Positions 50,393 through 64,000 of a stretch of DNA of 64,000 bases are shown piece by piece. Origin of the DNA: Bacteroidales bacterium (GTDB lineage Bacteria; Bacteroidota; Bacteroidia; Bacteroidales; UBA12077); assembly GCA_013138975.1 (NCBI GenBank), contig WTBR01000003.1, positions 2,446 through 66,445 on the forward strand. Direction: 5' to 3'. A program made the translations under genes and the position numbers. Each line of letters opens with the position of its first letter. Within the stretch, counting starts at the first letter, position 1. The notes under the pieces were generated by a model, which saw nothing but the letters and a program-made list of their open reading frames with translations, did not search any database and was not told the origin of the DNA.

Positions 50393-50465
50393 TGGTGCCA
50401 CCTGGAATCGAACCAGGGACACATGGATTTTCAGTCCATTGCTCTACCAACTGAGCTATGGCACC
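50393..50465 (-). tRNA. tRNA-Phe (GAA)
   Basis: The reverse complement, GGTGCCATAGCTCAGTTGGTAGAGCAATGGACTGAAAATCCATGTGTCCCTGGTTCGATTCCAGGTGGCACCA, folds as a 73-nt cloverleaf. The acceptor stem is GGTGCCA/TGGCACC, the anticodon stem is ATGGA/TCCAT, the anticodon is GAA, and the T-loop is GGTTCGATTCC. CCA is not encoded. Confidence 0.97.
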
Positions 50466-50603
50466 ATTCTTGCATTCTTGCTCAATTGCGAGTGCAAATA
50501 TAAGTGAAAATTTTCTTTTTCAAAATATTTTGCAATAATTTTTAAAAAAACTTAAACATCCTAAAACTTTACTTGTTTTAGTATTTTGATTGCTAGTTTT
50601 TTA

Positions 50604-50611
50604 TACTTTTG
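50604..50611 (+). promoter_or_regulatory. Candidate -7 promoter box (TAnnTTTG)
   Basis: tacttttg lies 21 nt upstream of the ATG at 50632. Confidence 0.35.
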
Positions 50612-50631
50612 CAGCTTATATAAAAAATTTA

Positions 50632-51852
50632 ATGAAGTACGAGAATTTTACACTGGAGAACGGGATACGAATTATTCATTTACATTCGAAATCGGCAGTT
50701 GGGCATTGTGGTTTAATTATTAATACCGGAGCACGCGATGAGGAAGAGCATGAGCACGGTATGGCTCATTTTATTGAACATGCAATTTTTAAAGGTACAA
50801 AAAATCGAAAAGCTTACCATATTCTTAGTCGACTAGAAGATGTTGGTGGTGAGATAAATGCATATACAAGCAAAGAAGAAACTACAATTCATACTTCATT
50901 TTTAAAAGATGATTACGAAAGAGCGATAGAAATTATTTCGGATGTAATATTCAATTCTACTTTCCCTGCGAAAGAAATTACACGCGAGAAAGAAGTTATT
51001 ATTGAAGAAATTAATTCATATAAGGATGATCCGGCTGAATTAATTTTTGATGAATTCGAAGAGTTAATTTTTAAAAATCAGCCTTTGGGAAAAAATATTT
51101 TAGGCACTCCTAAAGATTTACGCCGTTTTACCAAAAAGGATATTGAATCGTTTATCTCAAAAAATTACAATACCGATGAAATGGTTTTTTGTTCTGTGGG
51201 TGACATCTCATTTACAAAAATTAAAAAATTAACAAACAAATATTTTGGTCAAATTGAGTCAAATCCAAGGATAAATCCAAGAGACCAAACAAACCATTAT
51301 ATTCCTGAAACTAAAATCGTTAAAAAGAAGACACACCAAACACATTGTATTATTGGCAACAAAGCATATAATGCTCACGACAAGAAAAAGGTTGCAATGG
51401 TTTTATTGGATAATATGTTGGGTGGCCCCGGTTTAAATTCACGATTAAGTCTTTTACTTCGCGAAAAACATGGATATGCTTATCATGTGGAATCTAATTA
51501 TTCAGCATATTCGGATACAGGGATTTTTTCTGTTTATTTTGGTACTGATAAAGAAAATTACGAAAAATGTATAAAGCTGATAAAAAAGGAATTTGAACTA
51601 TTACGAACAAAAAAACTTGGGGTAGTGCAACTTAAAAAAGCCAAGCGTCAATTATTTGGGCAAATTGCTATTGGTTCTGAAAATAATGCCAGCTTAGTTT
51701 TAGCATTAGGTAAAAGCTTTATGCTTTTCAATAGGGTTGATGATTTAGAGAGGGTAAAAGAAAAGATTGAAGCTGTTACAGTTGAAAATATTCAGGAAAT
51801 TGCAAATGAGGTTTTAGATATTGATAAAATGTCGATGTTGGTTTATCAATAA
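50632..51852 (+). CDS. M16-family (pitrilysin/insulinase-like) zinc peptidase
   Basis: Inverted zinc motif HFIEH (GMAHFIEHAIFKGT) and a downstream E in EE.TIH... The start is placed at Met15 of the track ORF. Confidence 0.88.
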   Translation: MKYENFTLENGIRIIHLHSKSAVGHCGLIINTGARDEEEHEHGMAHFIEHAIFKGTKNRKAYHILSRLEDVGGEINAYTSKEETTIHTSFLKDDYERAIEIISDVIFNSTFPAKEITREKEVIIEEINSYKDDPAELIFDEFEELIFKNQPLGKNILGTPKDLRRFTKKDIESFISKNYNTDEMVFCSVGDISFTKIKKLTNKYFGQIESNPRINPRDQTNHYIPETKIVKKKTHQTHCIIGNKAYNAHDKKKVAMVLLDNMLGGPGLNSRLSLLLREKHGYAYHVESNYSAYSDTGIFSVYFGTDKENYEKCIKLIKKEFELLRTKKLGVVQLKKAKRQLFGQIAIGSENNASLVLALGKSFMLFNRVDDLERVKEKIEAVTVENIQEIANEVLDIDKMSMLVYQ

Positions 51853-55680: not shown

Positions 55681-56628
55681 ATGCAAAAACTTGCTATTGG
55701 TATTGATATTGGTGGAACAAATGTCTCATATGGAATTGTTACAAACGAAGGAGAAGTAATTCTAAAGAAATCATTTCCTTTTAAAAATTTTAAAACAGCA
55801 GAAATTTTTATAGATTTTCTAACAAAAGAACTAAAAAACACTTTTAAGGATTTACCAAAGGGTAGTTCTATTAAGGGTATCGGAATTGGGGCTCCAAATG
55901 GCAATTTTTATACCGGTACTATTGAGTATGCTCCAAATTTAAATTGGGAAGGAATTATTCCATTAGCAGATATGCTAAACAAGACATTAAATTACCCCGT
56001 AAAGCTAACTAATGATGCTAATGCAGCCACAATTGGAGAAATGATTTATGGAAATGCTAAAAACATAAAAAACTTTATGTTTATAACACTGGGAACGGGT
56101 GTAGGAAGTGGGTTTGTTGCAAACGGGGAAATAATATTGGGTCATGATGGATTTGCAGGAGAACTGGGGCATGCTATTTTTGATCCAAACGGACGACAAT
56201 GTAATTGTGGTAGAAAAGGATGTTTAGAAACTTATGCTTCGGCATCAGGAATTGTTAGGACTGTTTTAGAATTACTTTCAAAATCGGATGAACCTAGTGT
56301 TTTAAGAGAAATTTCTCTAGATGAAATATCAAGTAAAATGATATATGAAGCTGCATTAGAAGAAGACATAATTGCCCTTACTGCTTTTGATTATACAAGT
56401 TATGTTTTAGGAATTATGTTAGCCAACGCAGTTGCCATTACAAGCCCTGAAGCTATCTTCTTATTTGGGGGACTTGCAAATGCAGGCGATTTAATTTTTA
56501 AGCCTACAAAAAAGTACATGGAAGAATATTTATTAAATATTTATAAAAATAAAATTGACATTAAAGCTTCGGCTTTACCAGAAAATGATGCAGCCATATT
56601 GGGCGCTGCTGCATTGGTATGGGAATAA
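55681..56628 (+). CDS. ROK-family sugar kinase (glucokinase-like)
   Basis: IGIDIGGTN, LTNDANAAT.GE, GTGVGSG, and the zinc motif GHA...C.CG..GCLE. Confidence 0.88.
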   Translation: MQKLAIGIDIGGTNVSYGIVTNEGEVILKKSFPFKNFKTAEIFIDFLTKELKNTFKDLPKGSSIKGIGIGAPNGNFYTGTIEYAPNLNWEGIIPLADMLNKTLNYPVKLTNDANAATIGEMIYGNAKNIKNFMFITLGTGVGSGFVANGEIILGHDGFAGELGHAIFDPNGRQCNCGRKGCLETYASASGIVRTVLELLSKSDEPSVLREISLDEISSKMIYEAALEEDIIALTAFDYTSYVLGIMLANAVAITSPEAIFLFGGLANAGDLIFKPTKKYMEEYLLNIYKNKIDIKASALPENDAAILGAAALVWE

Positions 56629-56640
56629 AATTAAATAAAC

Positions 56641-56784
56641 TCTGTCCGTAAAGTCGGGTGTTTGATTCAGAAAGTTCGAGATTAAGGCTTGTGAAGTTTT
56701 AAAAATCAAGAGTTTAATTATGTAAATGATTGATTTTTAAAACGAGCATAACGCAGATATCGGATTTTATGGACAAACACTAAA
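56641..56784. repeat. MITE-like palindromic element (family C-a related)
   Basis: The outer inverted repeats tgtccgtaaagtcgg (56643-56657) and cggattttatggaca (56761-75) are reverse complements with 3 mismatches in 15 nt. There is an inner perfect 14-bp inverted repeat, gttttaaaaatcaa/ttgatttttaaaac (56696-56709 / 56730-56743). The right 40 nt are the reverse complement of 11895-11935. Confidence 0.7.
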
Positions 56785-56882
56785 TAGTTTCAATTTTCTT
56801 ATTGGGCATAATACTGAAAAAAGGTTTCCAACTAATTAACAATTTTACATAAATATAAAATTGATTATCGACGCTAAAGCTG

Positions 56883-57152
56883 TTACTTAACTATTTTTGA
56901 TTTCAATTTATAATTATATAAAATCCTACCTAAAAATTGCCCAGTAATAAACATTAATACAAATAACAAAAGATATAACCACTCAAACTTAATATCGCAT
57001 AAATACCTCAACCCTATTGAAATAATAACCGGAATATGAATTGATAAAAACCAGTTTAAAGAAAATCTCTTCTGACCTTTTCTCCAAAAACCAAATGGTA
57101 TATTAATTATAAAAACAATAAATGCTAAAAAAGCTATAATCATATTAAACAT
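56883..57152 (-). CDS. Hypothetical small membrane protein (3 TM)
   Basis: Track ORF with three hydrophobic helices, 10 nt downstream of the DMT gene. Confidence 0.45.
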   Translation of the reverse strand: MFNMIIAFLAFIVFIINIPFGFWRKGQKRFSLNWFLSIHIPVIISIGLRYLCDIKFEWLYLLLFVLMFITGQFLGRILYNYKLKSKIVK

Positions 57153-57161
57153 ATTTTCATA

Positions 57162-58046
57162 TCACTCTAGTTGTTTTTTTTTCTGCTTAGCAAAATGAAC
57201 GGTATAGATTCCGATAATTACAATTACACCACCAAAAATTTGCCAAATACTTAGCTCTTCACCTAACATAAAAAATGCTATTATTCCTGCCATTACAGGT
57301 TGTGCCAACAAAGTTGGAGAAATCAATGATGCAGGCAAGTATCCTTGAGCAAAGTTTATAAGAAACCAGGCACCGGCTTGAATGAATACGCCCATTATAA
57401 CAAACAAACCCCAGGCTTTTGACGAAAATCCTACAAATTCAAAGTTTTGAATTAACATAAATATTCCAAGAAAAACTGTTGTTGCCAAGCTACTAATAAA
57501 TAAAAAGGATATAGTATTTAATAGCTTTCTTCCTGATTGAGCGAAGAGCATAAAAGAAGCATAAAACACACCTGCAAAAAGTCCAAAAATTAGTCCTTTA
57601 AAAATACCATTAGGTTGAAACAAATCTTGAATAATTAAAAAAGTAACACCAACCAAGGCAACAAAAAGTCCTATCCAGAATTTAGAGTTTTGCCTTTCTT
57701 TAAAGAACAAGAAAGCACCTATTCCTACCCACAATGGTGCTAAATTTCCAACCAAGGTAGGCATTGCTGCATTTGACAGCATAATACCTGTTGCCCATAA
57801 AGCCATATCAATGGCTAAACACAATCCAGCTAAAACTGCTAAAATAATTCCCTTTGTTTTTAAAGCTTCTTTACTTTTAATTCTTGAAAGAACAAATGGT
57901 ATAAGCAGTGTAATAGTCCCAAAAAACAATCGATAAAAGACGGTTGTTGTACCTGGAGCACCTGCATCCTTAATTAATACAGGAGAAAAAGAAATTAACA
58001 GGGCTCCCATTAACAAAAAGATGTATGATTTTTTAATATTATCCAT
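57162..58046 (-). CDS. DMT-superfamily (EamA-like) transporter
   Basis: About 10 TM helices with two EamA-type halves, 294 aa. Confidence 0.85.
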   Translation of the reverse strand: MDNIKKSYIFLLMGALLISFSPVLIKDAGAPGTTTVFYRLFFGTITLLIPFVLSRIKSKEALKTKGIILAVLAGLCLAIDMALWATGIMLSNAAMPTLVGNLAPLWVGIGAFLFFKERQNSKFWIGLFVALVGVTFLIIQDLFQPNGIFKGLIFGLFAGVFYASFMLFAQSGRKLLNTISFLFISSLATTVFLGIFMLIQNFEFVGFSSKAWGLFVIMGVFIQAGAWFLINFAQGYLPASLISPTLLAQPVMAGIIAFFMLGEELSIWQIFGGVIVIIGIYTVHFAKQKKKQLE

Positions 58047-58138
58047 AAAATAGTAATCGTATATTATAATTAATTACAAAGAAATTAAAATTAGATGAAA
58101 TATTGGATTATGCCTAAAACTTTCTACAATTTAAAAAT

Positions 58139-58265
58139 GAACTACCCCGCCGGTATCAGCTGTGTAATTATTCTTAAATCGCTCCAAGAGGTGAGGAATA
58201 AGACCCAATAGATCCCTCGACTGTACTTTGACAAGCTCAGTGGAACCCGCTCGGGATCAGTTCGA
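58139..58265 (+). repeat. Family-C-b repeat copy with an embedded family-B motif
   Basis: Alignable with 11953-12071. It contains ctttgacaagctcagtggaac (58226-58246) inserted in the terminal gatccc.../...gggatc stem. Confidence 0.7.
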
Positions 58266-58736
58266 TTAATTAAAAGAAATTATTTCCAAAATTAGAATTG
58301 CTATGAGCTTTAAATCTTCATTAAATTACGTTTAAAGAATTGATTAGAATGAGCTATAGGTAAAATGAAAAAAATAAGAAGCAAATAAGCCAATAATTTT
58401 TCATCCACGTAATTATCTGGAGCATCTGTCGACCAAAAATAATCTCTATAAGAATTATACAAAATAAAATAGATCTCCAACTTAATTAATAGAATAAATC
58501 GTCAAATATTCAATAAGAATGCAGTTACACATAAAAATACAGATATAATTCCTAAACAATCTTCTAAATTTTGAGATACAGATTTTACAATTAGCAATTT
58601 ATCAAAAAAATGGATGTTTAATATCTATCACTCCTAAACAAATGTCGGAATTATTCTAAATTCGAGTTTAAGCACCATCCCCAAACTTACTACTCACTGG
58701 GGTATTCAACCAATATATCAAATATCTTCGATTGTT

Positions 58737-58777
58737 CACTGTTGAATTTTTCGGCAGTGTCGAATATTTCAACAGTG
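58737..58777. promoter_or_regulatory. 41-bp palindrome (operator-like) in the leader of the 58998 operon
   Basis: cactgttgaa-N21-ttcaacagtg has perfect 10-bp arms. The left arm plus 10 more nt (gttgaatttttcggca) is repeated directly at 58829-58844. Confidence 0.45.
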
Positions 58778-58997
58778 GTCGTAAACGATTGCTTTTCACA
58801 ACACTTACAACATTATCAAAAATTTAGTGTTGAATTTTTCGGCAATAAATGCTTTTACCTTGAAAATCATCAATTCCGTATAGTCTTGTATTTCAGTATT
58901 TTATACTCGTTTTTTTGGCTTTGGCACACCGTTTGATTTAGGCAAGATTGTACAGCACATTAATGAACCAAGTACATAATTTAAAATAAATATAGAC

Positions 58998-60683
58998 ATG
59001 AAAAATTTATTAGTATTAATCAGCTCGATGACATTCTTTGTAGTTTTTTCTGCAAATTTAAATGCCAAATCATCATTGCACAGCGCAACCGTGGAAGATT
59101 CAATTTATGTTTGGACAAGTCCAGATCTATTTGATATTGCTACAACTTGGGTAAGTGCATATGAAAGCATCAATCCGGAAGCTAAAATTAATGTTTCCAA
59201 TATCCCTAATGATATGGTAAGCCATATGCTAGATAAATCTGGAAATATTGGCTTAATCACAAAAAATTACCTTCCTGCTGCGAATAAATCCATTTGGAAA
59301 ATGTCTGTAGGCAGGGATATAATTGTTCCTATAATGAATTCGAATAATCCATTTTTGGAAGAAATATTCCAGAAAGGAATTTCACAAGAGGAATTTGCGA
59401 ACGTATTTACAGATTCAAAAAAACCAACTTGGGGAATCTTACTTAATAACAAGCAGTCGATTCCTGTTAATTGCTATTACATTAATGGCGAATTAAACAA
59501 GCCTTATCTGGCTGAGTTTTTACAAACAGATCTACAGAAAATAAATGGAAGAGATGTTGATGGCATTGATGAAATGCTAAATAAAATTCAAAATGATAAA
59601 TACGCCTTAGGATACTGCAAGTTAGTTGACATATTAGATCTTGAAGGTAAGGAATTAAAAGAAGGCATAAGTCTTATACCGATTGATATTAACGGGAACG
59701 ATAAGGTAGATCTTTTTGAAAATATCTATAAAAGCTCTAACGCACTAGAAAGAGGTGTATGGATAGGAAAATACCCTAAAGTATTATACAGCAATATATA
59801 TTCTGTTGCTGGTGATCAACCGATCAATAGTAATGAACTTGCATTCCTTGAGTGGATTGTAACTGACGGTCAACAACACCTCAACTCTAATGGCTATTCT
59901 GAACTCCTTATTAGTGAAAGACAGCGTAAAGTACAAAGCATTCATGATAATCATATGACTGTAGTAGATGTTCAAAAACCTGTAAACACTACAAGCACAA
60001 CAATTATTATTGTACTTATAATAACAGGAGTGCTTTTAACTCCAATTGTATTAATGTACAGAAAATCAAAAAATCCTACAATTGTAGAAGATAAAATAAT
60101 TACTCCACAAGTTTTTAAAGAATCATCAATAGCCGCTCCAAACGGGATGTATTTTGACAAATCACATACTTGGGCCTTTATGGAAAGAGATGGATTTGTA
60201 AGAATTGGGATAGCTGATTTTCTTCAGCATGTAACTGGTCAAATTACAAATGTAAAAATGAAAAACTCTGGAGAATCAATAAAAAAAGGGGAATCATTCC
60301 TTTCCATTATCCAGCATGGTAAACAACTGGATATAAATTCACCTATCTCCGGAAAAATTAAAGAAATTAATACTCAACTGAACTTTAACTCATCTGTAAT
60401 AAATTCTTCCCCATATTCAGAAGGTTGGATATATACTATTGAATCTAATAATTGGCTTACAGAAATCAAGACTTTTTTAATGGGTGAAACATATAAAGCA
60501 TGGCTCAAAAATGAATTTTCCCGACTAAAAGATTTCTTCTCTTCTGCAATTAAACTAGAAGTTACGGATCATTTACAAGCTGTTATTCAAGATGGTGGTG
60601 AGATAAATGATAATCCAATGGAAAGTTTTGGTCCTGAGATTTGGGAAGAATTTCAAACGGAATTTATTAACAAAGCAAAATAA
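58998..60683 (+). CDS. Membrane protein: signal peptide + PstS/PBP-like periplasmic domain + 1 TM + GcvH-fold domain with a conserved C-terminal extension
   Basis: The signal is MKNLLVLISSMTFFVVFSANLNA. The PBP-like pattern is ...VGRDIIVPIMNSNNPF...GISQEEFANVF....WG. The TM helix IIIVLIITGVLLTPIVLMY is followed by RKSK. The GcvH-like region reads YFDKSHTWAF..DGFVRIGIADFLQHVTG...GKQLDINSPISGKI...SPYSEGWIYTI. It is a paralogue of 62854..63576. Confidence 0.6.
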   Translation: MKNLLVLISSMTFFVVFSANLNAKSSLHSATVEDSIYVWTSPDLFDIATTWVSAYESINPEAKINVSNIPNDMVSHMLDKSGNIGLITKNYLPAANKSIWKMSVGRDIIVPIMNSNNPFLEEIFQKGISQEEFANVFTDSKKPTWGILLNNKQSIPVNCYYINGELNKPYLAEFLQTDLQKINGRDVDGIDEMLNKIQNDKYALGYCKLVDILDLEGKELKEGISLIPIDINGNDKVDLFENIYKSSNALERGVWIGKYPKVLYSNIYSVAGDQPINSNELAFLEWIVTDGQQHLNSNGYSELLISERQRKVQSIHDNHMTVVDVQKPVNTTSTTIIIVLIITGVLLTPIVLMYRKSKNPTIVEDKIITPQVFKESSIAAPNGMYFDKSHTWAFMERDGFVRIGIADFLQHVTGQITNVKMKNSGESIKKGESFLSIIQHGKQLDINSPISGKIKEINTQLNFNSSVINSSPYSEGWIYTIESNNWLTEIKTFLMGETYKAWLKNEFSRLKDFFSSAIKLEVTDHLQAVIQDGGEINDNPMESFGPEIWEEFQTEFINKAK

Positions 60684-60737
60684 CTATAATAACTATAACA
60701 TCAATAACATATTACAAACTAAACATTAAGAAACAAT

Positions 60738-61616
60738 ATGGGTATTAATCGATTAAACTTCTTGAAAGTACTTGGTCTAACAGGCGCCACACTTGCATTT
60801 GGTAAGAAATTAAATGCAAGTCAGCCCAGCCGTACAAAGGGAGAACAAAAAGAATTCGTTGGAGTCCTTTATGACTCAACACGTTGTGTCGGATGTCAGG
60901 AATGTGAAATAGTCTGTGCGAAAGAACACGGGCTACCAGAACCTGATTCTGACGACTATCCAACAACAGAAGTTGTTAGAAAAACAAATGAGAATAGACG
61001 CTCTGTAATTAATGTGTTTAACACATCAAAAGGCGAGGTTTATGCTAAAAAGCAATGTATGCATTGTAGCGAACCTGCATGTGGTGCTGCATGCCTAACA
61101 GAAGCTATGCATAAAACTCATGAGGGACCTGTAATTTGGAGAGGTGATAAATGCATGGGTTGTCGCTATTGTATGATTTCATGTCCATTTGATGTTCCTA
61201 AATTCGAATATCAAAGTACTAATCCTGAAATTGTTAAGTGTACAATGTGTAATGAAAGGGTACAAGAAGGTGGAATTCCTGCTTGTGTTGAAAATTGTCC
61301 TGCAGAAGCATTAATGTTTGGTACAAGAAAAGACCTTCTAAAGGAAGCAAGGAAGAGAATAGTAGAAAATCCTGATTTATATTATGATCATATTTATGGT
61401 GAACATGAGGCTGGTGGTACAGAATTTCTATATTTATCACCTGTACCATTTAAAGAAATAGGATTTAAAACTAATCTTCAGAATAAATCATATCCTTCAC
61501 TAACAAAAGGTTTTATTGGAGCCATTGCTCCTGTAGATATATTGCTTCCGGCAGCTCTTTTGGGAATTTATGAAGCAACCAAGTCTAATAAAACAAAAAC
61601 GGAGGACGAAGAATGA
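60738..61616 (+). CDS. 4Fe-4S ferredoxin-type subunit, NrfC/HybA/DsrO-like, with a C-terminal TM anchor
   Basis: Four cluster motifs: CVGCQECEIVC, CMHCSEPACGAAC, CMGCRYCMISCP and CTMCNERV...CVENCP. The N-terminal INRLNFLK export-like region is a degenerate twin-arginine motif. C-terminal helix: FIGAIAPVDILLPAALLGIY. Confidence 0.8.
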   Translation: MGINRLNFLKVLGLTGATLAFGKKLNASQPSRTKGEQKEFVGVLYDSTRCVGCQECEIVCAKEHGLPEPDSDDYPTTEVVRKTNENRRSVINVFNTSKGEVYAKKQCMHCSEPACGAACLTEAMHKTHEGPVIWRGDKCMGCRYCMISCPFDVPKFEYQSTNPEIVKCTMCNERVQEGGIPACVENCPAEALMFGTRKDLLKEARKRIVENPDLYYDHIYGEHEAGGTEFLYLSPVPFKEIGFKTNLQNKSYPSLTKGFIGAIAPVDILLPAALLGIYEATKSNKTKTEDEE

Positions 61617-62842
61617 GACAAGCAATAAATATACAATCAGAAGAAAAGCGTGAAAATAAAATTTGGCCTTTTTTATTAAGTGAATTAAAGCCAAAAGGTA
61701 AAATTTTTACACCATTCAATATTATAAGTGCACCAATAATGTTGGCTGGAATTATAATTATCTTTTTAAGATTCTGGAACGGAATAGGTTCTGTTACAAA
61801 CTTATCTCAAGACGTTCCCTGGGGCCTCTGGATCGGATTTGATGTTGTAACTGGAGTTGCTTTTGCTGGTGGTGCTTATGTATTGGTATTTCTTGTCTAT
61901 ATATTAAACATGGAAAAGTATAAGCCAATCGCACGAATTACAGTTCTTAATGGATTTTTAGCTTATTTATTTTATTCAGGCGCATTATTACTTGATTTAG
62001 GTAGACCATTAAATGTTATAAATGTCGTTATTGGAAATAACTTCGGTGTTAGCTCTGTTCTATTCTTGGTAGGTTGGCATTTTTTATTGTATATGCTCGC
62101 TTTATTTCTAGAATTTTCGCCTGCAATAGCAGAATGGCTTGGTGCTCGTAAATTAAGAAAAGCACTTTCCGGATTGACTCTAGTTGCAGTTATATTTGGA
62201 ATAACATTATCTGTTTTACACCAATCCGGTATCGGTGCATTGTTTTTAATGGCTAAAGAAAAAATACATCCTTTATGGTATAATTCATATATGCCAATTA
62301 TGTTTGTTGTATCGAGTATTTTTGCTGGAATCTCCATGGTAATTTTTGAAGGTTCAATTAGCCACAAAGTATTTTCGGATCAACTTGAAGAAGGTAGCCA
62401 TGAAAAACATAATGACATCTTGCATGGCCTATCTAAGATTTGCACCGGAGGTATGTTTGTATACCTGTTTTTATTGGTGCTTATTTTTGTACACCAACAA
62501 AACTGGGAATACCTACCTACTAAAATGGGAGCTTGGTTTTTAGTAGAAGTCATTGGGTTTGTATTAACACCTATGATCTTATTCTATTATAGTTATAGAA
62601 CCAAAAAAATACTCTGGATTAAAATTGCATCTATAATGACCTTAGTTGGAATTCTCCTTAACAGAATGAATATCTCAATTATTGCTTATAAGTGGGATGC
62701 TGCTGTAAGATACATTCCTGATTGGAAAGAGTTTGTTGTTACATTCACAATTATTTTTATTGAAATTTGGATATTTAGATGGATTGTAAGGCGAATGCCT
62801 GTTATTCGTAAATCTCCATCTTGGGTTAAAGATTCACATTAA
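61613..62842 (+). CDS. NrfD/PsrC/HybB-family integral membrane (quinone-interacting) subunit
   Basis: 409 aa with about 10 TM helices and an ATGA overlap with the ferredoxin gene. The N-terminal region ...PWGLWIGFDVVTGVAFAGGAY is typical of NrfD-family proteins, by recollection. Confidence 0.7.
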   Translation: MRQAINIQSEEKRENKIWPFLLSELKPKGKIFTPFNIISAPIMLAGIIIIFLRFWNGIGSVTNLSQDVPWGLWIGFDVVTGVAFAGGAYVLVFLVYILNMEKYKPIARITVLNGFLAYLFYSGALLLDLGRPLNVINVVIGNNFGVSSVLFLVGWHFLLYMLALFLEFSPAIAEWLGARKLRKALSGLTLVAVIFGITLSVLHQSGIGALFLMAKEKIHPLWYNSYMPIMFVVSSIFAGISMVIFEGSISHKVFSDQLEEGSHEKHNDILHGLSKICTGGMFVYLFLLVLIFVHQQNWEYLPTKMGAWFLVEVIGFVLTPMILFYYSYRTKKILWIKIASIMTLVGILLNRMNISIIAYKWDAAVRYIPDWKEFVVTFTIIFIEIWIFRWIVRRMPVIRKSPSWVKDSH

Positions 62843-62853
62843 AAACATATAAT

Positions 62854-63576
62854 ATGGAAGAAAGTTTTAATTATGTAAATATTTTCGAAACAAAAGGAAT
62901 TGAATATTTAATGACAATAGCATTTTTTGCTATTCTAATTCCATTTTGGTTATATCTTAAAAATCCAAAGGCTATAAATGAAAAATTCACACAGGTTATT
63001 GGTACACTCTCTGAAAAGATCCTTAAAATACCACTAGGATTATTTTATAGTAAAAATCACACATGGATGCAATTGGAAAAATCGGGTAATGCTAAAGTAG
63101 GATTAGATGATCTACTTATGCATATTACAGGCGAAGTTAATGTAAGCAATTTTAAGCAACCTGGGGAAAAGGTTAGACCCGGGGATGTAATTGCCCAAAT
63201 TGAACAAAATGGGAAACAGTTAAACATTTCGTCTCCTATTTCCGGTGAAGTTCAAAGTGTAAATACATCTATCAATGAAGATCCTAGTATTATAAATGAA
63301 GATCCTTATGGAAAGGGATGGATTTTAAAAATAAAGCCAGAAAAATGGATTGCAGAAACTAATACATGCTTAGTGGCTGAAGATGCTGAAGAATGGTTGA
63401 AAAATGAGTTGACGAGATTTAAAGATTTTGTTGCCTCTTCCATGGGTAATCTATCTCCAGAGCCATCTATGACAATCTTACAAGACGGTGGTGAATTATC
63501 AGACAATCCACTATCGGGGATGCCGAACGAGGTTTGGAAAGACTTTCAAACAAAGTTTCTTGACCAAATAGGCTGA
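62854..63576 (+). CDS. Single-TM membrane-anchored GcvH-fold protein (paralogue of the C-terminal half of 58998..60683)
   Basis: The TM helix LMTIAFFAILIPFWLYL is followed by KNPK. The GcvH-like region reads YSKNHTWMQLE..AKVGLDDLLMHITGE...GKQLNISSPISGEV...DPYGKGWILKIK. It shares the extension ...LQDGGELSDNP...EVWKDFQTKF. Confidence 0.65.
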   Translation: MEESFNYVNIFETKGIEYLMTIAFFAILIPFWLYLKNPKAINEKFTQVIGTLSEKILKIPLGLFYSKNHTWMQLEKSGNAKVGLDDLLMHITGEVNVSNFKQPGEKVRPGDVIAQIEQNGKQLNISSPISGEVQSVNTSINEDPSIINEDPYGKGWILKIKPEKWIAETNTCLVAEDAEEWLKNELTRFKDFVASSMGNLSPEPSMTILQDGGELSDNPLSGMPNEVWKDFQTKFLDQIG

Positions 63577-63672
63577 AAAACATAAATTTAAATAGTGTTG
63601 ATTAAGAGCTTTTATGTAACTTTAGTTCATCTTAATAACACAAAAAGGACTAGATTAATAAGCAATAAAAAT

Positions 63673-63706
63673 GGGGGAAGGCGAACTATTCAGGGAGCCT
63701 TCTCCC
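63673..63706 (+). terminator. Hairpin after the operon (weak terminator candidate)
   Basis: gggggaaggc-N14-gccttctccc forms a roughly 9-bp stem with one bulge. It is followed by tatatgtt rather than a clean T-run. Confidence 0.35.
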
Positions 63707-63758
63707 TATATGTTAATATACAAAAGAGTAATATTAACTCACATAATAATTCGATTCG

Positions 63759-64000
63759 ATGATGGAGGGACGTTCAAAAAAATTCTTTAAGAGATTACTA
63801 GAAATCGAAACATTGAAAAAATTTACCAGATTCAAATCTTCCATATATGGCCGCGTAGTATTTATAATTACTGGAGCATTAATTGTCCTTTTTATTCTTT
63901 TCAATATTGTTTTCCGATCCGTTTATGGTAATTTTTTTAATACTAATGTTCACCAAAATGGCGATAACATCAGCTCTATTGTAGAGGGAGCATTATATTA
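63759..64000 (+). CDS. Membrane protein, 3' end outside window (possibly a sensor protein)
   Basis: An open frame from ATG 63759 to the window end: MMEGRSKKFFKRLLEIETLKKF...GRVVFIITGALIVLFILFNIVF... has a basic N-terminus and one TM, like the start of many sensor kinases. No catalytic domain is visible, so the function is a guess. Confidence 0.4.
   Translation, partial: MMEGRSKKFFKRLLEIETLKKFTRFKSSIYGRVVFIITGALIVLFILFNIVFRSVYGNFFNTNVHQNGDNISSIVEGALY

What the first reader, a model, noticed from the sequence alone, without database searches (positions are those of the whole stretch)
58998..63576. Orphan NrfC/NrfD-type quinone module bracketed by two membrane-anchored GcvH-fold paralogues, one fused to a periplasmic PstS-like binding domain
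Four same-strand genes are packed like an operon, with gaps of 54 nt, a 4-nt ATGA overlap and 11 nt.

- Gene 1 has a Sec signal, a ~300-aa periplasmic-binding-protein-like domain, one TM helix and a GcvH-fold domain with a ~90-aa extension.
- Genes 2 and 3 are a four-cluster ferredoxin with a C-terminal anchor (HybA/DsrO/NrfC type) and a ~10-TM NrfD/PsrC/HybB-type subunit.
- Gene 4 is a short TM anchor plus the same GcvH-fold domain and extension. By eye it is about 40% identical to gene 1, and both share (H/N)GKQL(D/N)I.SPISG and (L/I)QDGGE(L/I).DNP....E(V/I)W..FQT.F.

No catalytic partner is present in the operon or in the 950-bp non-coding leader: no molybdopterin subunit, hydrogenase, cytochrome c or Hdr subunit.

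NrfCD modules normally link a catalytic subunit to the quinone pool. Soluble GcvH-like lipoate-binding proteins (LbpA) are known partners of the sHdr sulfur-oxidation system. I know of no described system in which membrane-tethered GcvH-fold proteins are paired with an NrfCD module.

I see two hypotheses. The module could oxidise or reduce a protein-bound dithiol/swinging arm through the quinone pool. Alternatively, it could be a ligand- and redox-sensing complex feeding the membrane protein encoded downstream.
Basis: partly seen in the sequence, partly recalled or inferred. Interest (0 to 1): 0.75.

Follow-up and report, generated by a model that had tools for sequence, protein, structure and literature searches.

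The report
Redox-sensor operon with GcvH-like adaptors
The four genes are real, but they are the front part of a widespread, undescribed seven-gene cluster in which a haem-containing sensor kinase and its sigma-54 activator control a quinone-linked iron-sulfur module and membrane-tethered proteins that look like glycine-cleavage H protein but are not conserved lipoyl carriers.

Summary
All four ORFs, their spacing, the domain calls and the 38% paralogy are correct.

The unit is larger than reported. It continues past the window end with three more genes:
- a histidine kinase whose periplasmic PAS-like domain carries CXXCH and CX4CH haem motifs;
- an NtrC-type sigma-54 activator;
- an archaemetzincin (M54) peptidase.

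A conserved -24/-12 promoter and GTGTTGAA repeats lie in the 950-bp leader.

The set recurs in MAGs labelled as about ten phylum-level lineages. Of 86 peptidase-anchored loci with enough flank, 66 hold every gene family of the set. No catalytic subunit or cytochrome is conserved beside it.

HmcB/HmcC is an optional cassette:
- it is absent in 18 of those 86 loci;
- it occurs only with haem-type kinases (Fisher p = 0.0014);
- an MFS transporter takes its place in a soluble variant.

GcvH-like proteins are the near-constant partner of the kinase-activator-peptidase trio. The lipoyl lysine is shifted by one residue here and is not conserved across the family.

Best reading: this is a sigma-54 redox-signalling unit. 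HmcBC couples the quinone pool to the periplasmic side, possibly to the kinase's own haems. The GcvH-fold domains act as cytoplasmic adaptors.

The mechanism is inferred, not shown. I found no description of the cluster in the literature.

The parts
58737..58777 (.). Imperfect palindrome CACTGTTGAATTTTTCGGCA / TGTCGAATATTTCAACAGTG. Candidate enhancer (UAS) for the NtrC-type activator.
   Evidence: Inverted repeat I2, 20-nt arms, 85% complementary. Its half-site TGTTGAATA / GTGTTGAA is the most enriched 9-mer upstream of gene 1 homologues, found in 42 of 74 loci.
58823..58844 (.). Third copy of the half-site (TTTAGTGTTGAATTTTTCGGCA).
   Evidence: Direct repeat family D1, 91% identical to the copy at 58735-58756.
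58922..58937 (+). Sigma-54 type -24/-12 promoter-like element TGGCACACCGTTTGAT, 61 nt before the gene 1 start.
   Evidence: The pattern has only 2 matches in the whole window on both strands. The same motif is found in 46 of 74 upstream regions of gene 1 homologues, about half of them 47-54 nt before the start and the rest spread to -119. It also precedes the first GcvH-like gene in Syntrophobacteraceae, Acidobacteriota and Limnocylindria loci.
58998..60683 (+). Gene 1. Sec signal, periplasmic PstS-like binding domain (about aa 35-316), TM helix (aa 335-353), cytoplasmic GcvH-fold domain (aa 385-505) and a helical C-terminal extension (aa 506-561).
60738..61616 (+). Gene 2. HmcB/HybA-like ferredoxin with four [4Fe-4S] motifs, a Tat-like signal and a C-terminal TM anchor.
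   Evidence: NCBIfam HmcB 329.6 bits (cut-off 420) and HybA 241 bits (cut-off 263). 16 Cys and one TM helix at 259-277.
61613..62842 (+). Gene 3. HmcC/HybB-like NrfD-family membrane subunit with about 10 TM helices, N- and C-termini inside.
   Evidence: Pfam NrfD E 1.3e-19. NCBIfam HmcC 378 bits (cut-off 550). Lys/Arg loop bias.
62854..63576 (+). Gene 4. N-terminal TM anchor, cytoplasmic GcvH-fold domain (aa 64-184) and the same C-terminal extension as gene 1.
   Evidence: Within Bacteroidales it comes and goes together with HmcB/HmcC.
63762..64000 (+). 5' end of the sensor histidine kinase gene, cut by the window end. The full protein is 558 aa: TM, periplasmic PAS-like domain with CTECH and CYTSACH, TM, HAMP, HisKA, HATPase. 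The NtrC-type activator and the M54 peptidase follow on the same contig.
   Evidence: L081 is the same contig extended past the window. Pfam domains. Haem motifs conserved across phyla.

Best explanation
The four genes are the promoter-proximal part of a sigma-54-dependent, seven-gene redox-signalling cluster.

**Shown.**
- Three genes follow directly downstream. The first is a histidine kinase whose periplasmic PAS-like domain carries two conserved haem-c attachment motifs. The second is an NtrC-type sigma-54 activator. The third is an archaemetzincin (M54) zinc peptidase.
- A conserved -24/-12 promoter and conserved GTGTTGAA repeats precede gene 1.
- This kinase-activator-peptidase trio, plus at least one GcvH-like protein, is the conserved core.
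- HmcB/HmcC is an optional cassette, together with gene 4 in Bacteroidales. It is found only with haem-type kinases.

**Inferred.**
- The kinase's haems report periplasmic or quinone-pool redox state.
- The phosphorylated activator binds the repeats and switches on the operon. In this gene order that also auto-induces the regulators.
- HmcBC is a menaquinone-coupled electron wire to the periplasmic face. No other periplasmic redox protein is ever co-encoded, so its most likely partner is the kinase's own di-haem domain. It would then act as a co-sensor or feedback device that ties the haem redox state to the quinone pool.
- The two membrane-tethered GcvH-fold domains are not conserved lipoyl carriers. 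They are cytoplasmic adaptor or regulatory domains that connect the membrane modules to the kinase, the activator or the peptidase.
- The PstS-like domain of gene 1, which is specific to Bacteroidales, adds a periplasmic ligand input, probably an anion.
For: **Extent of the unit.**
- The contig extension shows kinase, activator and then peptidase.
- In the first 80 loci, every GcvH-like gene with the C-terminal extension had HmcB, HmcC, kinase, activator and M54 nearby where the contig allowed. The only exceptions on adequately long contigs were L024, which has no HmcBC and a non-haem kinase, and L031, which has no detected haem-sensor match and no M54. None of about 45 plain gcvH loci had any of these genes.

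**Tally of peptidase-anchored loci with enough flank (n = 86).**
- 66 have the full set.
- 11 have a haem kinase and a GcvH-like gene but no HmcBC.
- 3 have a non-haem kinase and a GcvH-like gene but no HmcBC.
- 2 have HmcBC but no detected GcvH-like gene.
- HmcBC occurs with 68 of 82 haem kinases and with 0 of 4 non-haem kinases. Fisher p = 0.0014.

**Variants.**
- Minimal Bacteroidales variants run gene 1, kinase, activator, M54 contiguously.
- A soluble variant pairs a Cys4-GcvH-like protein with an MFS transporter instead of HmcBC. A sigma-54 promoter precedes it in 2 of the 5 loci scanned.

**Regulatory DNA.** The sigma-54 promoter and the UAS motif are conserved.

**The kinase sensor.**
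- Its best PDB profile match is the GSU0582 haem-c PAS sensor, 3b42, E 7e-4.
- The secondary structure of the model fits a PAS/PDC fold.
- Met42 and His151 are invariant and are candidate distal haem ligands.

**No other partner.** No conserved cytochrome or catalytic subunit appears in the flanks.

**Functional precedent.** In Geobacter the sigma-54 activator BccR (GSU0598) induces a quinone oxidoreductase operon at low redox potential (10.1101/2021.04.15.440034). GSU0599, next to it by locus number, is listed as a two-component protein with two CX2-4CH motifs (PMC8396549). I did not examine the locus itself.
Against: **Against the 'wire to the kinase haems' step.**
- About three quarters of the HmcB homologues from the second peptidase scan (36 of the 46 usable ORFs) have no signal peptide, although HmcC topology is the same as in the Tat-bearing forms. 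In those lineages the Fe-S subunit may not reach the periplasm.
- 14 haem-kinase loci work without HmcBC.
- A sigma-54 promoter in front of the operon is what one expects of a regulated output, not of an input device.
- The association of HmcBC with haem kinases fits the plain 'regulated effector' model equally well.

**Against the 'adaptor' role.**
- It rests only on co-occurrence. No interaction was modelled.
- Lys at +1 is invariant in Bacteroidales, so a modification there is not excluded.

**General limits.**
- All loci are MAGs.
- No expression or biochemical data exist.
Confidence: 0.45

Rival explanations
1. Plain regulated effector. HmcBC, with the GcvH-like proteins as structural subunits, is a respiratory quinol:periplasmic-acceptor or donor:quinone oxidoreductase. 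The adjacent haem-sensing two-component system switches it on, as BccR switches on CbcBA in Geobacter. Its periplasmic redox partner, such as a soluble cytochrome or a hydrogenase, is encoded elsewhere. It does not feed back on the kinase.
For: - A conserved sigma-54 promoter and UAS lie in front of the operon. In split arrangements they precede only the GcvH-HmcBC genes.
- There is a Geobacter precedent.
- HmcBC is replaced by an MFS transporter in the soluble variant, which is what an exchangeable output would look like.
- HmcB and HmcC are closest to Hmc and Hyb electron-transfer subunits.
Against: - No partner is co-encoded in more than 100 loci from about ten phylum-level lineages. Hmc, Hyb, Qrc, Psr and Cbc modules are normally encoded next to theirs (established knowledge).
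- It does not explain why GcvH-like proteins and an M54 peptidase always accompany the regulators, even where HmcBC is absent.
Confidence: 0.3
2. The NrfCD-type module oxidises or reduces a protein-bound swinging arm or dithiol on the membrane-tethered GcvH-fold domains, through the quinone pool.
For: - The GcvH fold is nearly intact, at rmsd 1.2 A to E. coli H-protein.
- A Lys one residue after the lipoyl position is invariant in the Bacteroidales gene 1 family and present in their gene 4 copies examined.
- A basic residue at the hairpin tip is common across the family.
- Most non-Bacteroidales HmcB copies lack a signal peptide. They could therefore sit on the cytoplasmic side, next to the GcvH domains.
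- Soluble-variant copies have Lys at the canonical position, and a SIR2 gene is nearby in 3 loci.
Against: - Of 116 cluster-associated domains, Lys is at the canonical position in 1, at +1 in 48, at +2 in 20 and absent in 47.
- Both window proteins score below the GcvH equivalog cut-offs: 75.6 and 78.5 bits against 115.85.
- In Tat-bearing forms, including close relatives of this window, Fe-S and GcvH domains are predicted on opposite membrane faces.
- HmcC has no evident transmembrane electron path. It lacks the HmcE/HmcF type subunits.
- GcvH-like genes occur without HmcBC in 14 of 86 loci.
- No lipoate ligase or sHdr genes lie in the clusters.
Confidence: 0.07
3. An anion-sensing system, for phosphate or a similar ion. 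The PstS-like domain of gene 1 is the primary sensor and signals the availability of an oxyanion to the kinase, as PstS-PhoU does to PhoR or TorT to TorS. The redox parts are secondary.
For: - The PstS fold is confirmed.
- PBP_like_2 is annotated in many homologues.
- Minimal Bacteroidales variants keep only gene 1 with the kinase, activator and peptidase.
Against: - The binding domain is confined to Bacteroidales. All other lineages have only the TM-GcvH-like form.
- The kinase keeps its own conserved di-haem sensor in every lineage.
- By inspection, the usual PstS phosphate-binding motifs are not obvious. This was not formally tested.
Confidence: 0.06

Closest known systems
Geobacter sulfurreducens BccR (GSU0598) and GSU0599, with the cbcBA operon
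   Same: - A sigma-54 NtrC-type response regulator switches on an adjacent -24/-12-driven operon that encodes an inner-membrane quinone oxidoreductase, in response to falling redox potential (10.1101/2021.04.15.440034).
- GSU0599, adjacent to bccR by locus number, is listed as a two-component protein with two CX2-4CH haem-c motifs (PMC8396549). I did not examine that locus.
   Different: - There the output is a di-haem b / seven-haem c cytochrome pair (CbcBA). Here it is an Fe-S/NrfD pair with no cytochrome.
- The paper names no GcvH-like protein or M54 peptidase for that operon. Two of its genes are called 'hypothetical', and I could not inspect them.
- Orthology of the regulators was not tested.
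Hmc complex (HmcABCDEF) of Desulfovibrio, and HybA/HybB of E. coli hydrogenase 2
   Same: Genes 2 and 3 are most similar to HmcB/HmcC, then to HybA/HybB. They share four-cluster ferredoxin motifs, a Tat-type signal and C-terminal anchor, and a 10-TM NrfD-family partner.
   Different: - All scores are below the equivalog cut-offs.
- There is no HmcA cytochrome, no HmcD/E/F and no hydrogenase.
- The module sits inside a signalling cluster.
Periplasmic haem-c PAS-like sensor domains (GSU0582, GSU0935; PDB 3b42, 3b47)
   Same: - Best PDB profile match of the kinase sensor domain, E 7e-4.
- The conserved Met-containing helix and the R..L...P..N...C..CH segment align.
- A second haem motif, as here, is reported for GSU0591, GSU0599, Adeh_2011 and Adeh_3383 (PMC3831638).
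   Different: - The solved examples are single-haem chemoreceptor domains.
- Similarity is weak.
- Haem binding by this kinase is untested.
Glycine cleavage H protein and lipoate-binding LbpA of the sHdr system
   Same: The same barrel-sandwich fold, with Pfam GCV_H E about 1e-25 and TM 0.94 to E. coli GcvH.
   Different: - Membrane-tethered.
- Carries a roughly 55-aa helical extension with conserved W...DGG...W.
- The lipoyl Lys is not conserved.
- No gcvT/gcvP, sHdr or lipoate-ligase genes are present.
- Linked to a two-component system instead.
Accessory or co-sensor proteins of histidine kinases (TorT-TorS, LuxP-LuxQ, DctA/DcuB-DcuS, ZraP-ZraS)
   Same: Periplasmic binding proteins, or regulated membrane proteins, encoded with a kinase and proposed to modulate it. 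ZraSR is also sigma-54-dependent. These comparisons rest on established knowledge.
   Different: None of these uses a GcvH-fold cytoplasmic domain, an NrfCD module or an M54 peptidase.

Membership tests
Glycine cleavage H protein (GcvH) | GCV_H fold | tested here: met
   Pfam PF01597 E 2e-25 and 5e-25. Foldseek to 3a8k_E TM 0.94, rmsd 1.2 A.
Glycine cleavage H protein (GcvH) | Lipoyl-lysine at the hairpin tip (E-S-V-K-A context) | tested here: not met
   E. coli and Thermus Lys aligns to Gly of N-G-K, with Lys at +1. Across 116 cluster-associated domains the canonical Lys occurs once.
Glycine cleavage H protein (GcvH) | Score above the NCBIfam equivalog cut-off (TIGR00527, 115.85 bits) | tested here: not met
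   75.6 and 78.5 bits.
Glycine cleavage H protein (GcvH) | Genomic association with gcvT/gcvP | tested here: not met
   Beyond the named families, gene maps of more than 100 loci show only locus-specific neighbours or sets shared by a few loci. Those I checked are unrelated to glycine cleavage. I did not search genome-wide.
Hmc complex (HmcABCDEF) | HmcB and HmcC equivalogs | tested here: not met
   HmcB 329.6 bits against cut-off 420. HmcC 378.1 bits against cut-off 550. These are the best-scoring families but fall below threshold.
Hmc complex (HmcABCDEF) | HmcA multihaem cytochrome and the HmcD/E/F subunits | tested here: not met
   None in the window, in L081 or in related loci.
HybA/HybB of [NiFe] hydrogenase 2 | Equivalog scores and an adjacent hydrogenase | tested here: not met
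   HybA 241 bits against 263. HybB 245 bits against 450. No hydrogenase genes are nearby.
Generic NrfC/NrfD-type quinone module | Four-cluster ferredoxin plus a NrfD-family membrane subunit, encoded adjacently | tested here: met
   16 Cys in four motifs. Pfam Fer4_11 and NrfD. The two genes overlap by 4 nt.
Generic NrfC/NrfD-type quinone module | Export of the Fe-S subunit to the periplasm (Tat signal or hitch-hiking) | tested here: inconclusive
   The window copy has NRLNFLK. Close homologues have RRxF[FL]K. 36 of the 46 usable distant homologues have no signal.
Generic NrfC/NrfD-type quinone module | A co-encoded catalytic or cytochrome partner | tested here: not met
   Only the kinase's di-haem domain is conserved nearby.
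Haem-c PAS-like periplasmic sensor kinases (GSU0599 type) | CX2-4CH motif(s) in a periplasmic PAS/PDC-like domain between two TM helices | tested here: met
   CXXCH and CX4CH are conserved in 25 of the 29 kinases of this BLAST cluster. One of the other four is a second, oppositely oriented kinase in L008, and another is the soluble PAS kinase of L024. TM helices at 33-51 and 222-240. The model shows a long helix followed by a five-strand sheet. 3b42 is the best profile hit, E 7e-4.
Haem-c PAS-like periplasmic sensor kinases (GSU0599 type) | Covalent haem actually bound | not testable with these tools
   Needs haem staining or spectroscopy of the expressed domain.
NtrC-type sigma-54 two-component system | REC, sigma-54 AAA+ and HTH_8 domains in the regulator, and a -24/-12 promoter at the target | tested here: met
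   Pfam on the L019 regulator. The L081 fragment shows the REC domain and the start of the AAA+ domain. Promoter conservation.
Archaemetzincin (peptidase M54) | HExxHxxGxxH with a Cys4 zinc site, and Pfam PF07998 | tested here: met
   74.1 bits against cut-off 24.4. H132, E133, H136, H142, C143, C148, C167 and C170 are invariant.
PstS-type periplasmic phosphate-binding protein | Type II binding-protein fold of the PstS class | tested here: met
   Foldseek 4jwo E 2e-15; 4gd5, 4q8r, 1twy and 4exl TM 0.72-0.74. 4h1x phmmer E 1e-3.
PstS-type periplasmic phosphate-binding protein | Pfam gathering score, and phosphate-ligating residues | tested here: inconclusive
   The window protein scores 21.3 bits against cut-off 27, but many homologues carry PF12849. 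Ligand residues were not analysed.
sHdr-LbpA sulfur oxidation system | Lipoylated LbpA next to sHdr genes and lipoate-maturation genes | tested here: not met
   No Hdr-like or lipoate ligase genes lie in any cluster map. The lysine is not conserved.

The most novel reading that the evidence does not exclude
A respiratory NrfCD-type (HmcBC-like) module has been recruited as the input device of a two-component sensor.
- It equilibrates the kinase's own periplasmic haems with the menaquinone pool.
- Non-lipoylated, membrane-tethered GcvH-fold domains form a new class of cytoplasmic signalling adaptor.
- The always-co-encoded archaemetzincin peptidase controls the state or abundance of these adaptors.

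If true, this would be the first physiological role for a bacterial archaemetzincin and a new use of the H-protein fold.
Probability: 0.2. Interest if true: 0.85.

Novelty: new variant of a known kind. Interest (0 to 1): 0.64.

Why it matters
- **A widespread gene set with no description I could find.** The cluster has at least 344 protein clusters at 50% identity for the GcvH-like component and occurs in about ten phylum-level lineages of mostly anoxic-habitat MAGs. It joins parts from bioenergetics and signalling that have not been reported together.
- **It corrects a systematic mis-annotation.** These proteins are labelled 'glycine cleavage system protein H'.
- **It gives bacterial archaemetzincins a fixed genomic context.** They sit beside a sigma-54 two-component system.
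- **It raises a testable idea.** Cells may wire a sensor kinase to the quinone pool through a dedicated Fe-S/NrfD module rather than through direct quinone binding.
- **The conservative reading still adds something.** If only the BccR/CbcBA-like reading holds, the cluster still adds a new type of redox-regulated quinone module in Bacteroidota, Acidobacteriota and other lineages.

Tried and rejected
**Searches that found nothing.**
- Rfam on 56500-64000 at E <= 0.1 gave no match.
- ARAGORN found no tRNA or tmRNA.
- Four literature searches found no description: NrfD + GcvH; archaemetzincin + sigma-54; NrfD + histidine kinase + glycine cleavage; NrfD + sigma-54 + response regulator. One broader search was uninformative.

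**Searches that were uninformative.**
- A single-sequence PDB search with the kinase sensor found nothing useful. Only the profile search reached 3b42.
- Foldseek with the whole kinase model was dominated by catalytic-core hits and said nothing about the sensor domain.

**No cultured host.** Three genome scans returned only MAGs in their top lists.

**Flanking genes.** I looked for a conserved catalytic partner. Beyond the named families I found only locus-specific genes or sets shared by a few loci. Those I inspected were very large proteins of about 1,900 aa of unknown function and proteins whose N-termini look like glucose-6-phosphate dehydrogenase by eye; neither was scanned against Pfam.

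**A lead from locus L024.** Its GcvH-like genes sit beside a sirtuin and a pyridine-nucleotide disulfide oxidoreductase.
- The sirtuin recurs in 3 loci.
- The oxidoreductase does not recur.
- The conserved neighbour in that variant is an MFS transporter.
- I therefore dropped the 'Lpd-like partner' idea.

**Inverted HmcC topology.** I considered that signal-less HmcB copies might pair with an inverted HmcC. The Lys/Arg loop bias is the same in both groups, so I rejected this.

Full report

Yes. The four + strand ORFs lie at 58998-60683, 60738-61616, 61613-62842 and 62854-63576. The spacings are 54 nt, a 4-nt overlap and 11 nt. A 951-bp gap separates gene 1 from the divergent EamA-transporter gene.

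- **Domain calls.** Pfam gives GCV_H for genes 1 and 4 (E 2e-25 and 5e-25), Fer4_11 for gene 2 and NrfD for gene 3.
- **The PstS-like call for gene 1.** It is weak by sequence: PBP_like_2 scores 21.3 bits, below the 27-bit cut-off. An AF2 model (mean pLDDT 77) confirms the fold. It matches PstS-type proteins (4jwo E 2e-15; 4gd5, 4q8r, 1twy and 4exl TM 0.72-0.74). Its C-terminal domain matches E. coli H-protein at TM 0.94, rmsd 1.2 A.
- **Gene 2.** It has 16 Cys in four cluster motifs and a C-terminal TM helix.
- **Gene 3.** It has about 10 TM helices.
- **Paralogy.** The gene 1 C-terminus and gene 4 are 38% identical and share both quoted motifs.
- **Topology.** Basic residues follow both anchors, which places both GcvH-fold domains in the cytoplasm (read directly from the sequence). 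The Fe-S protein has a Tat-like signal. It is degenerate in this window (NRLNFLK), whereas close homologues have RRxF[FL]K.

**2. The unit is larger than four genes.**

The same contig, recovered as L081, continues with three more genes.

- **A 558-aa histidine kinase.** Its order is TM, periplasmic domain, TM, HAMP, HisKA, HATPase.
- **An NtrC-type regulator**.
- **A 177-aa archaemetzincin-type M54 peptidase**, which follows the regulator in related loci. It has invariant HExxHxxGxxH and Cys4 sites.

The kinase's periplasmic domain carries CXXCH and CX4CH about 50 residues apart. These motifs are conserved from Bacteroidales to Acidobacteriota and Syntrophobacteraceae, together with an invariant Met and a CH.H histidine.

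- A profile of this domain finds the GSU0582 haem-c PAS sensor (3b42) as its best PDB match, E 7e-4. The CX4CH motif aligns to that protein's haem site.
- The model shows a long helix followed by a five-strand sheet.
- Sensors of this family with a second haem motif have been noted in Geobacter (GSU0591, GSU0599) and Anaeromyxobacter (PMC3831638, PMC8396549).

**3. Co-conservation.**

In the first 80 loci fetched with gene 4, every GcvH-like gene that carries the C-terminal extension had HmcB, HmcC, the haem kinase, the activator and M54 within 10 kb where the contig allowed. The only exceptions on adequately long contigs were L024 and L031, neither of which has the haem-type sensor. None of about 45 ordinary gcvH loci had any of them.

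Two further scans were anchored on the peptidase. They returned the order [GcvH-like x1-3] - HmcB - HmcC - [GcvH-like x0-2] - kinase - activator - M54. The MAG labels were Bacteroidota, Ignavibacteria, Acidobacteriota, Gemmatimonadota, Syntrophales, Calditrichia, Planctomycetota, Chromatiales, Eisenbacteria and Limnocylindria.

Tally of the 86 peptidase-anchored loci with enough flank:

| Content | Loci |
|---|---|
| Full set | 66 |
| Haem kinase + GcvH-like, no HmcBC | 11 |
| Haem kinase only | 3 |
| Non-haem kinase + GcvH-like, no HmcBC | 3 |
| HmcBC, no detected GcvH-like gene | 2 |
| Regulators only | 1 |

- HmcBC is found only with haem-type kinases (68 of 82 against 0 of 4, Fisher p = 0.0014).
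- In six Bacteroidales loci the order is simply gene 1, kinase, activator, M54. In that order, HmcB-HmcC-gene 4 therefore behaves as one insertable cassette.
- A soluble deltaproteobacterial variant has a cytoplasmic PAS kinase and Cys4-GcvH-like proteins without TM helices. An MFS transporter stands where HmcBC would be.
- No multihaem cytochrome, hydrogenase, molybdoenzyme or Hdr-like gene is conserved in any flank.
- A profile of the two window paralogues finds 344 representative clusters at E <= 1e-30.
- Sources call these proteins 'glycine cleavage system protein H'.

**4. Regulatory DNA.**

- **Promoter.** A -24/-12 element, TGGCACACCGTTTGAT, sits 61 nt before gene 1. The pattern occurs only twice in the whole window on both strands.
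- **Its conservation.** The element recurs in 46 of 74 upstream regions of gene 1 homologues, about half of them 47-54 nt before the start. It also lies before the first GcvH-like gene in Syntrophobacteraceae, Acidobacteriota and Limnocylindria, including loci where the regulators are transcribed separately. It lies before the MFS-GcvH-like operon in 2 of the 5 soluble-variant loci scanned.
- **Candidate enhancer.** Upstream of the promoter are a 41-bp palindrome and a third half-site. The half-site GTGTTGAA is the most enriched 9-mer across homologous leaders, in 42 of 74 loci.
- **Conclusion.** The operon is very probably a direct target of the co-encoded activator. In this gene order it would be auto-induced.

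**5. Are the GcvH-fold domains lipoyl carriers?**

Probably not, as a family.

- HMMER and MAFFT both align the lipoyl Lys of Thermus and E. coli H-protein to the Gly of N-G-K, without gaps. That puts Lys one residue later.
- Of 116 cluster-associated domains, the canonical position holds Lys once. Lys is at +1 in 48 (mainly Bacteroidales) and at +2 in 20 (mainly Acidobacteriota). No Lys is nearby in 47.
- Both window proteins fall below the GcvH equivalog cut-offs.
- The Lys at +1 is invariant within the Bacteroidales gene 1 family, so a lineage-specific modification cannot be excluded.
- The roughly 55-aa extension is helical in the model and carries conserved W...DGG...W.

**6. Most likely mechanism.**

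*Shown.*
- The conserved core is the haem-c kinase, the sigma-54 activator, the M54 peptidase and at least one GcvH-like protein, with a sigma-54 promoter in front of the GcvH-like gene or genes.
- The variable part is the membrane module: HmcBC, an MFS transporter, or none.

*Inferred.*
- The kinase reads periplasmic or quinone-pool redox state through its two haems.
- The activator turns on the operon.
- HmcBC couples the menaquinone pool to the periplasmic face. HmcB-type subunits normally dock a haem-c protein (established knowledge of Hmc, Qrc and Cbc-type complexes). The kinase domain is the only conserved periplasmic redox protein in the cluster. I therefore favour HmcBC acting on the kinase's own haems, as a co-sensor or feedback wire.
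- The GcvH-fold domains act as cytoplasmic adaptors between the membrane modules and the kinase, the activator or the peptidase.
- In Bacteroidales the PstS-like domain adds a ligand input.

*Main rival.*
- In the plain BccR/CbcBA-like reading, HmcBC is only a regulated respiratory output with an unlinked partner.
- The promoter data fit that rival at least as well as my preferred reading.
- What the rival does not explain is the absence of any co-encoded partner, and the constant presence of GcvH-like proteins and M54.

**7. Unresolved.**

- About three quarters of the non-Bacteroidales HmcB homologues scored (36 of the 46 usable ORFs) start only about 11 residues before the first cluster motif, with no signal peptide. 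Yet the Lys/Arg loop bias of HmcC is the same as in Tat-bearing systems.
- Either these copies are exported by hitch-hiking on an unlinked protein, or the Fe-S subunit is cytoplasmic there.
- The role of M54 is unknown.
- All loci come from MAGs. No cultured carrier appeared in the top lists.

**8. Novelty and score.**

- Each part belongs to a known family. The regulatory logic has a Geobacter precedent.
- The combination has not been described in the searchable literature. It consists of an NrfCD-type module with no catalytic partner, membrane-tethered GcvH-fold proteins without a conserved lipoyl lysine, a di-haem sensor kinase, a sigma-54 activator and an archaemetzincin.
- I class it as a new variant of a known kind and score interest at 0.64.

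Noticed in passing
window 63672-63706 (gene 4 to kinase gap, 63577-63761): There is a stable 10-bp G+C-rich hairpin (GGGGGAAGGC...GCCUUCUCCC) in the 185-nt gap. The whole gap folds at z = -3.5 against shuffles. No T-run follows it. A UAS-like half-site, TAGTGTTGA, lies at 63593-63601. It could be a processing or attenuation site, or an internal promoter region for the regulator genes.
   Followed up: partly
window 58110-58275, minus strand: This G+C-richer stretch lies upstream of the divergent EamA-family transporter gene (57162-58046). It folds well on the minus strand (-46.9 kcal/mol, z = -2.7; no shuffle folds as well) but not on the plus strand (z = -0.2). It has no Rfam match at E <= 0.1. 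It may be a structured 5' leader.
   Followed up: partly
window 50459-50474: This is the only other match in the window to the sigma-54 -24/-12 pattern (TGGCACCATTCTTGCA). It lies 116 nt upstream of an M16 (insulinase-type) peptidase gene at 50590-51852.
   Followed up: no
L024 6270-7028; L208 13155-13910; L254 13131-13886: A SIR2-family gene lies within about 3 kb of the Cys4-GcvH-like genes in three loci of the soluble variant. Those GcvH-like copies have Lys at the canonical lipoyl position in L208, L250 and L254. This recalls sirtuin-GcvH-L systems. Its significance is unknown.
   Followed up: partly
L185-L262 (second peptidase-anchored scan): Bacterial archaemetzincin-like M54 genes were next to an NtrC-type regulator gene in all 80 loci. 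They were next to a haem-sensor kinase in about 70 of them. This genomic context for the family does not seem to have been reported.
   Followed up: yes
L247 (Planctomycetota), gene downstream of HmcC: One GcvH-like ORF of 419 aa carries four CXXCH motifs. It may be a fusion of a GcvH-like protein with a cytochrome domain, or an ORF-calling artefact in high-G+C DNA.
   Followed up: no
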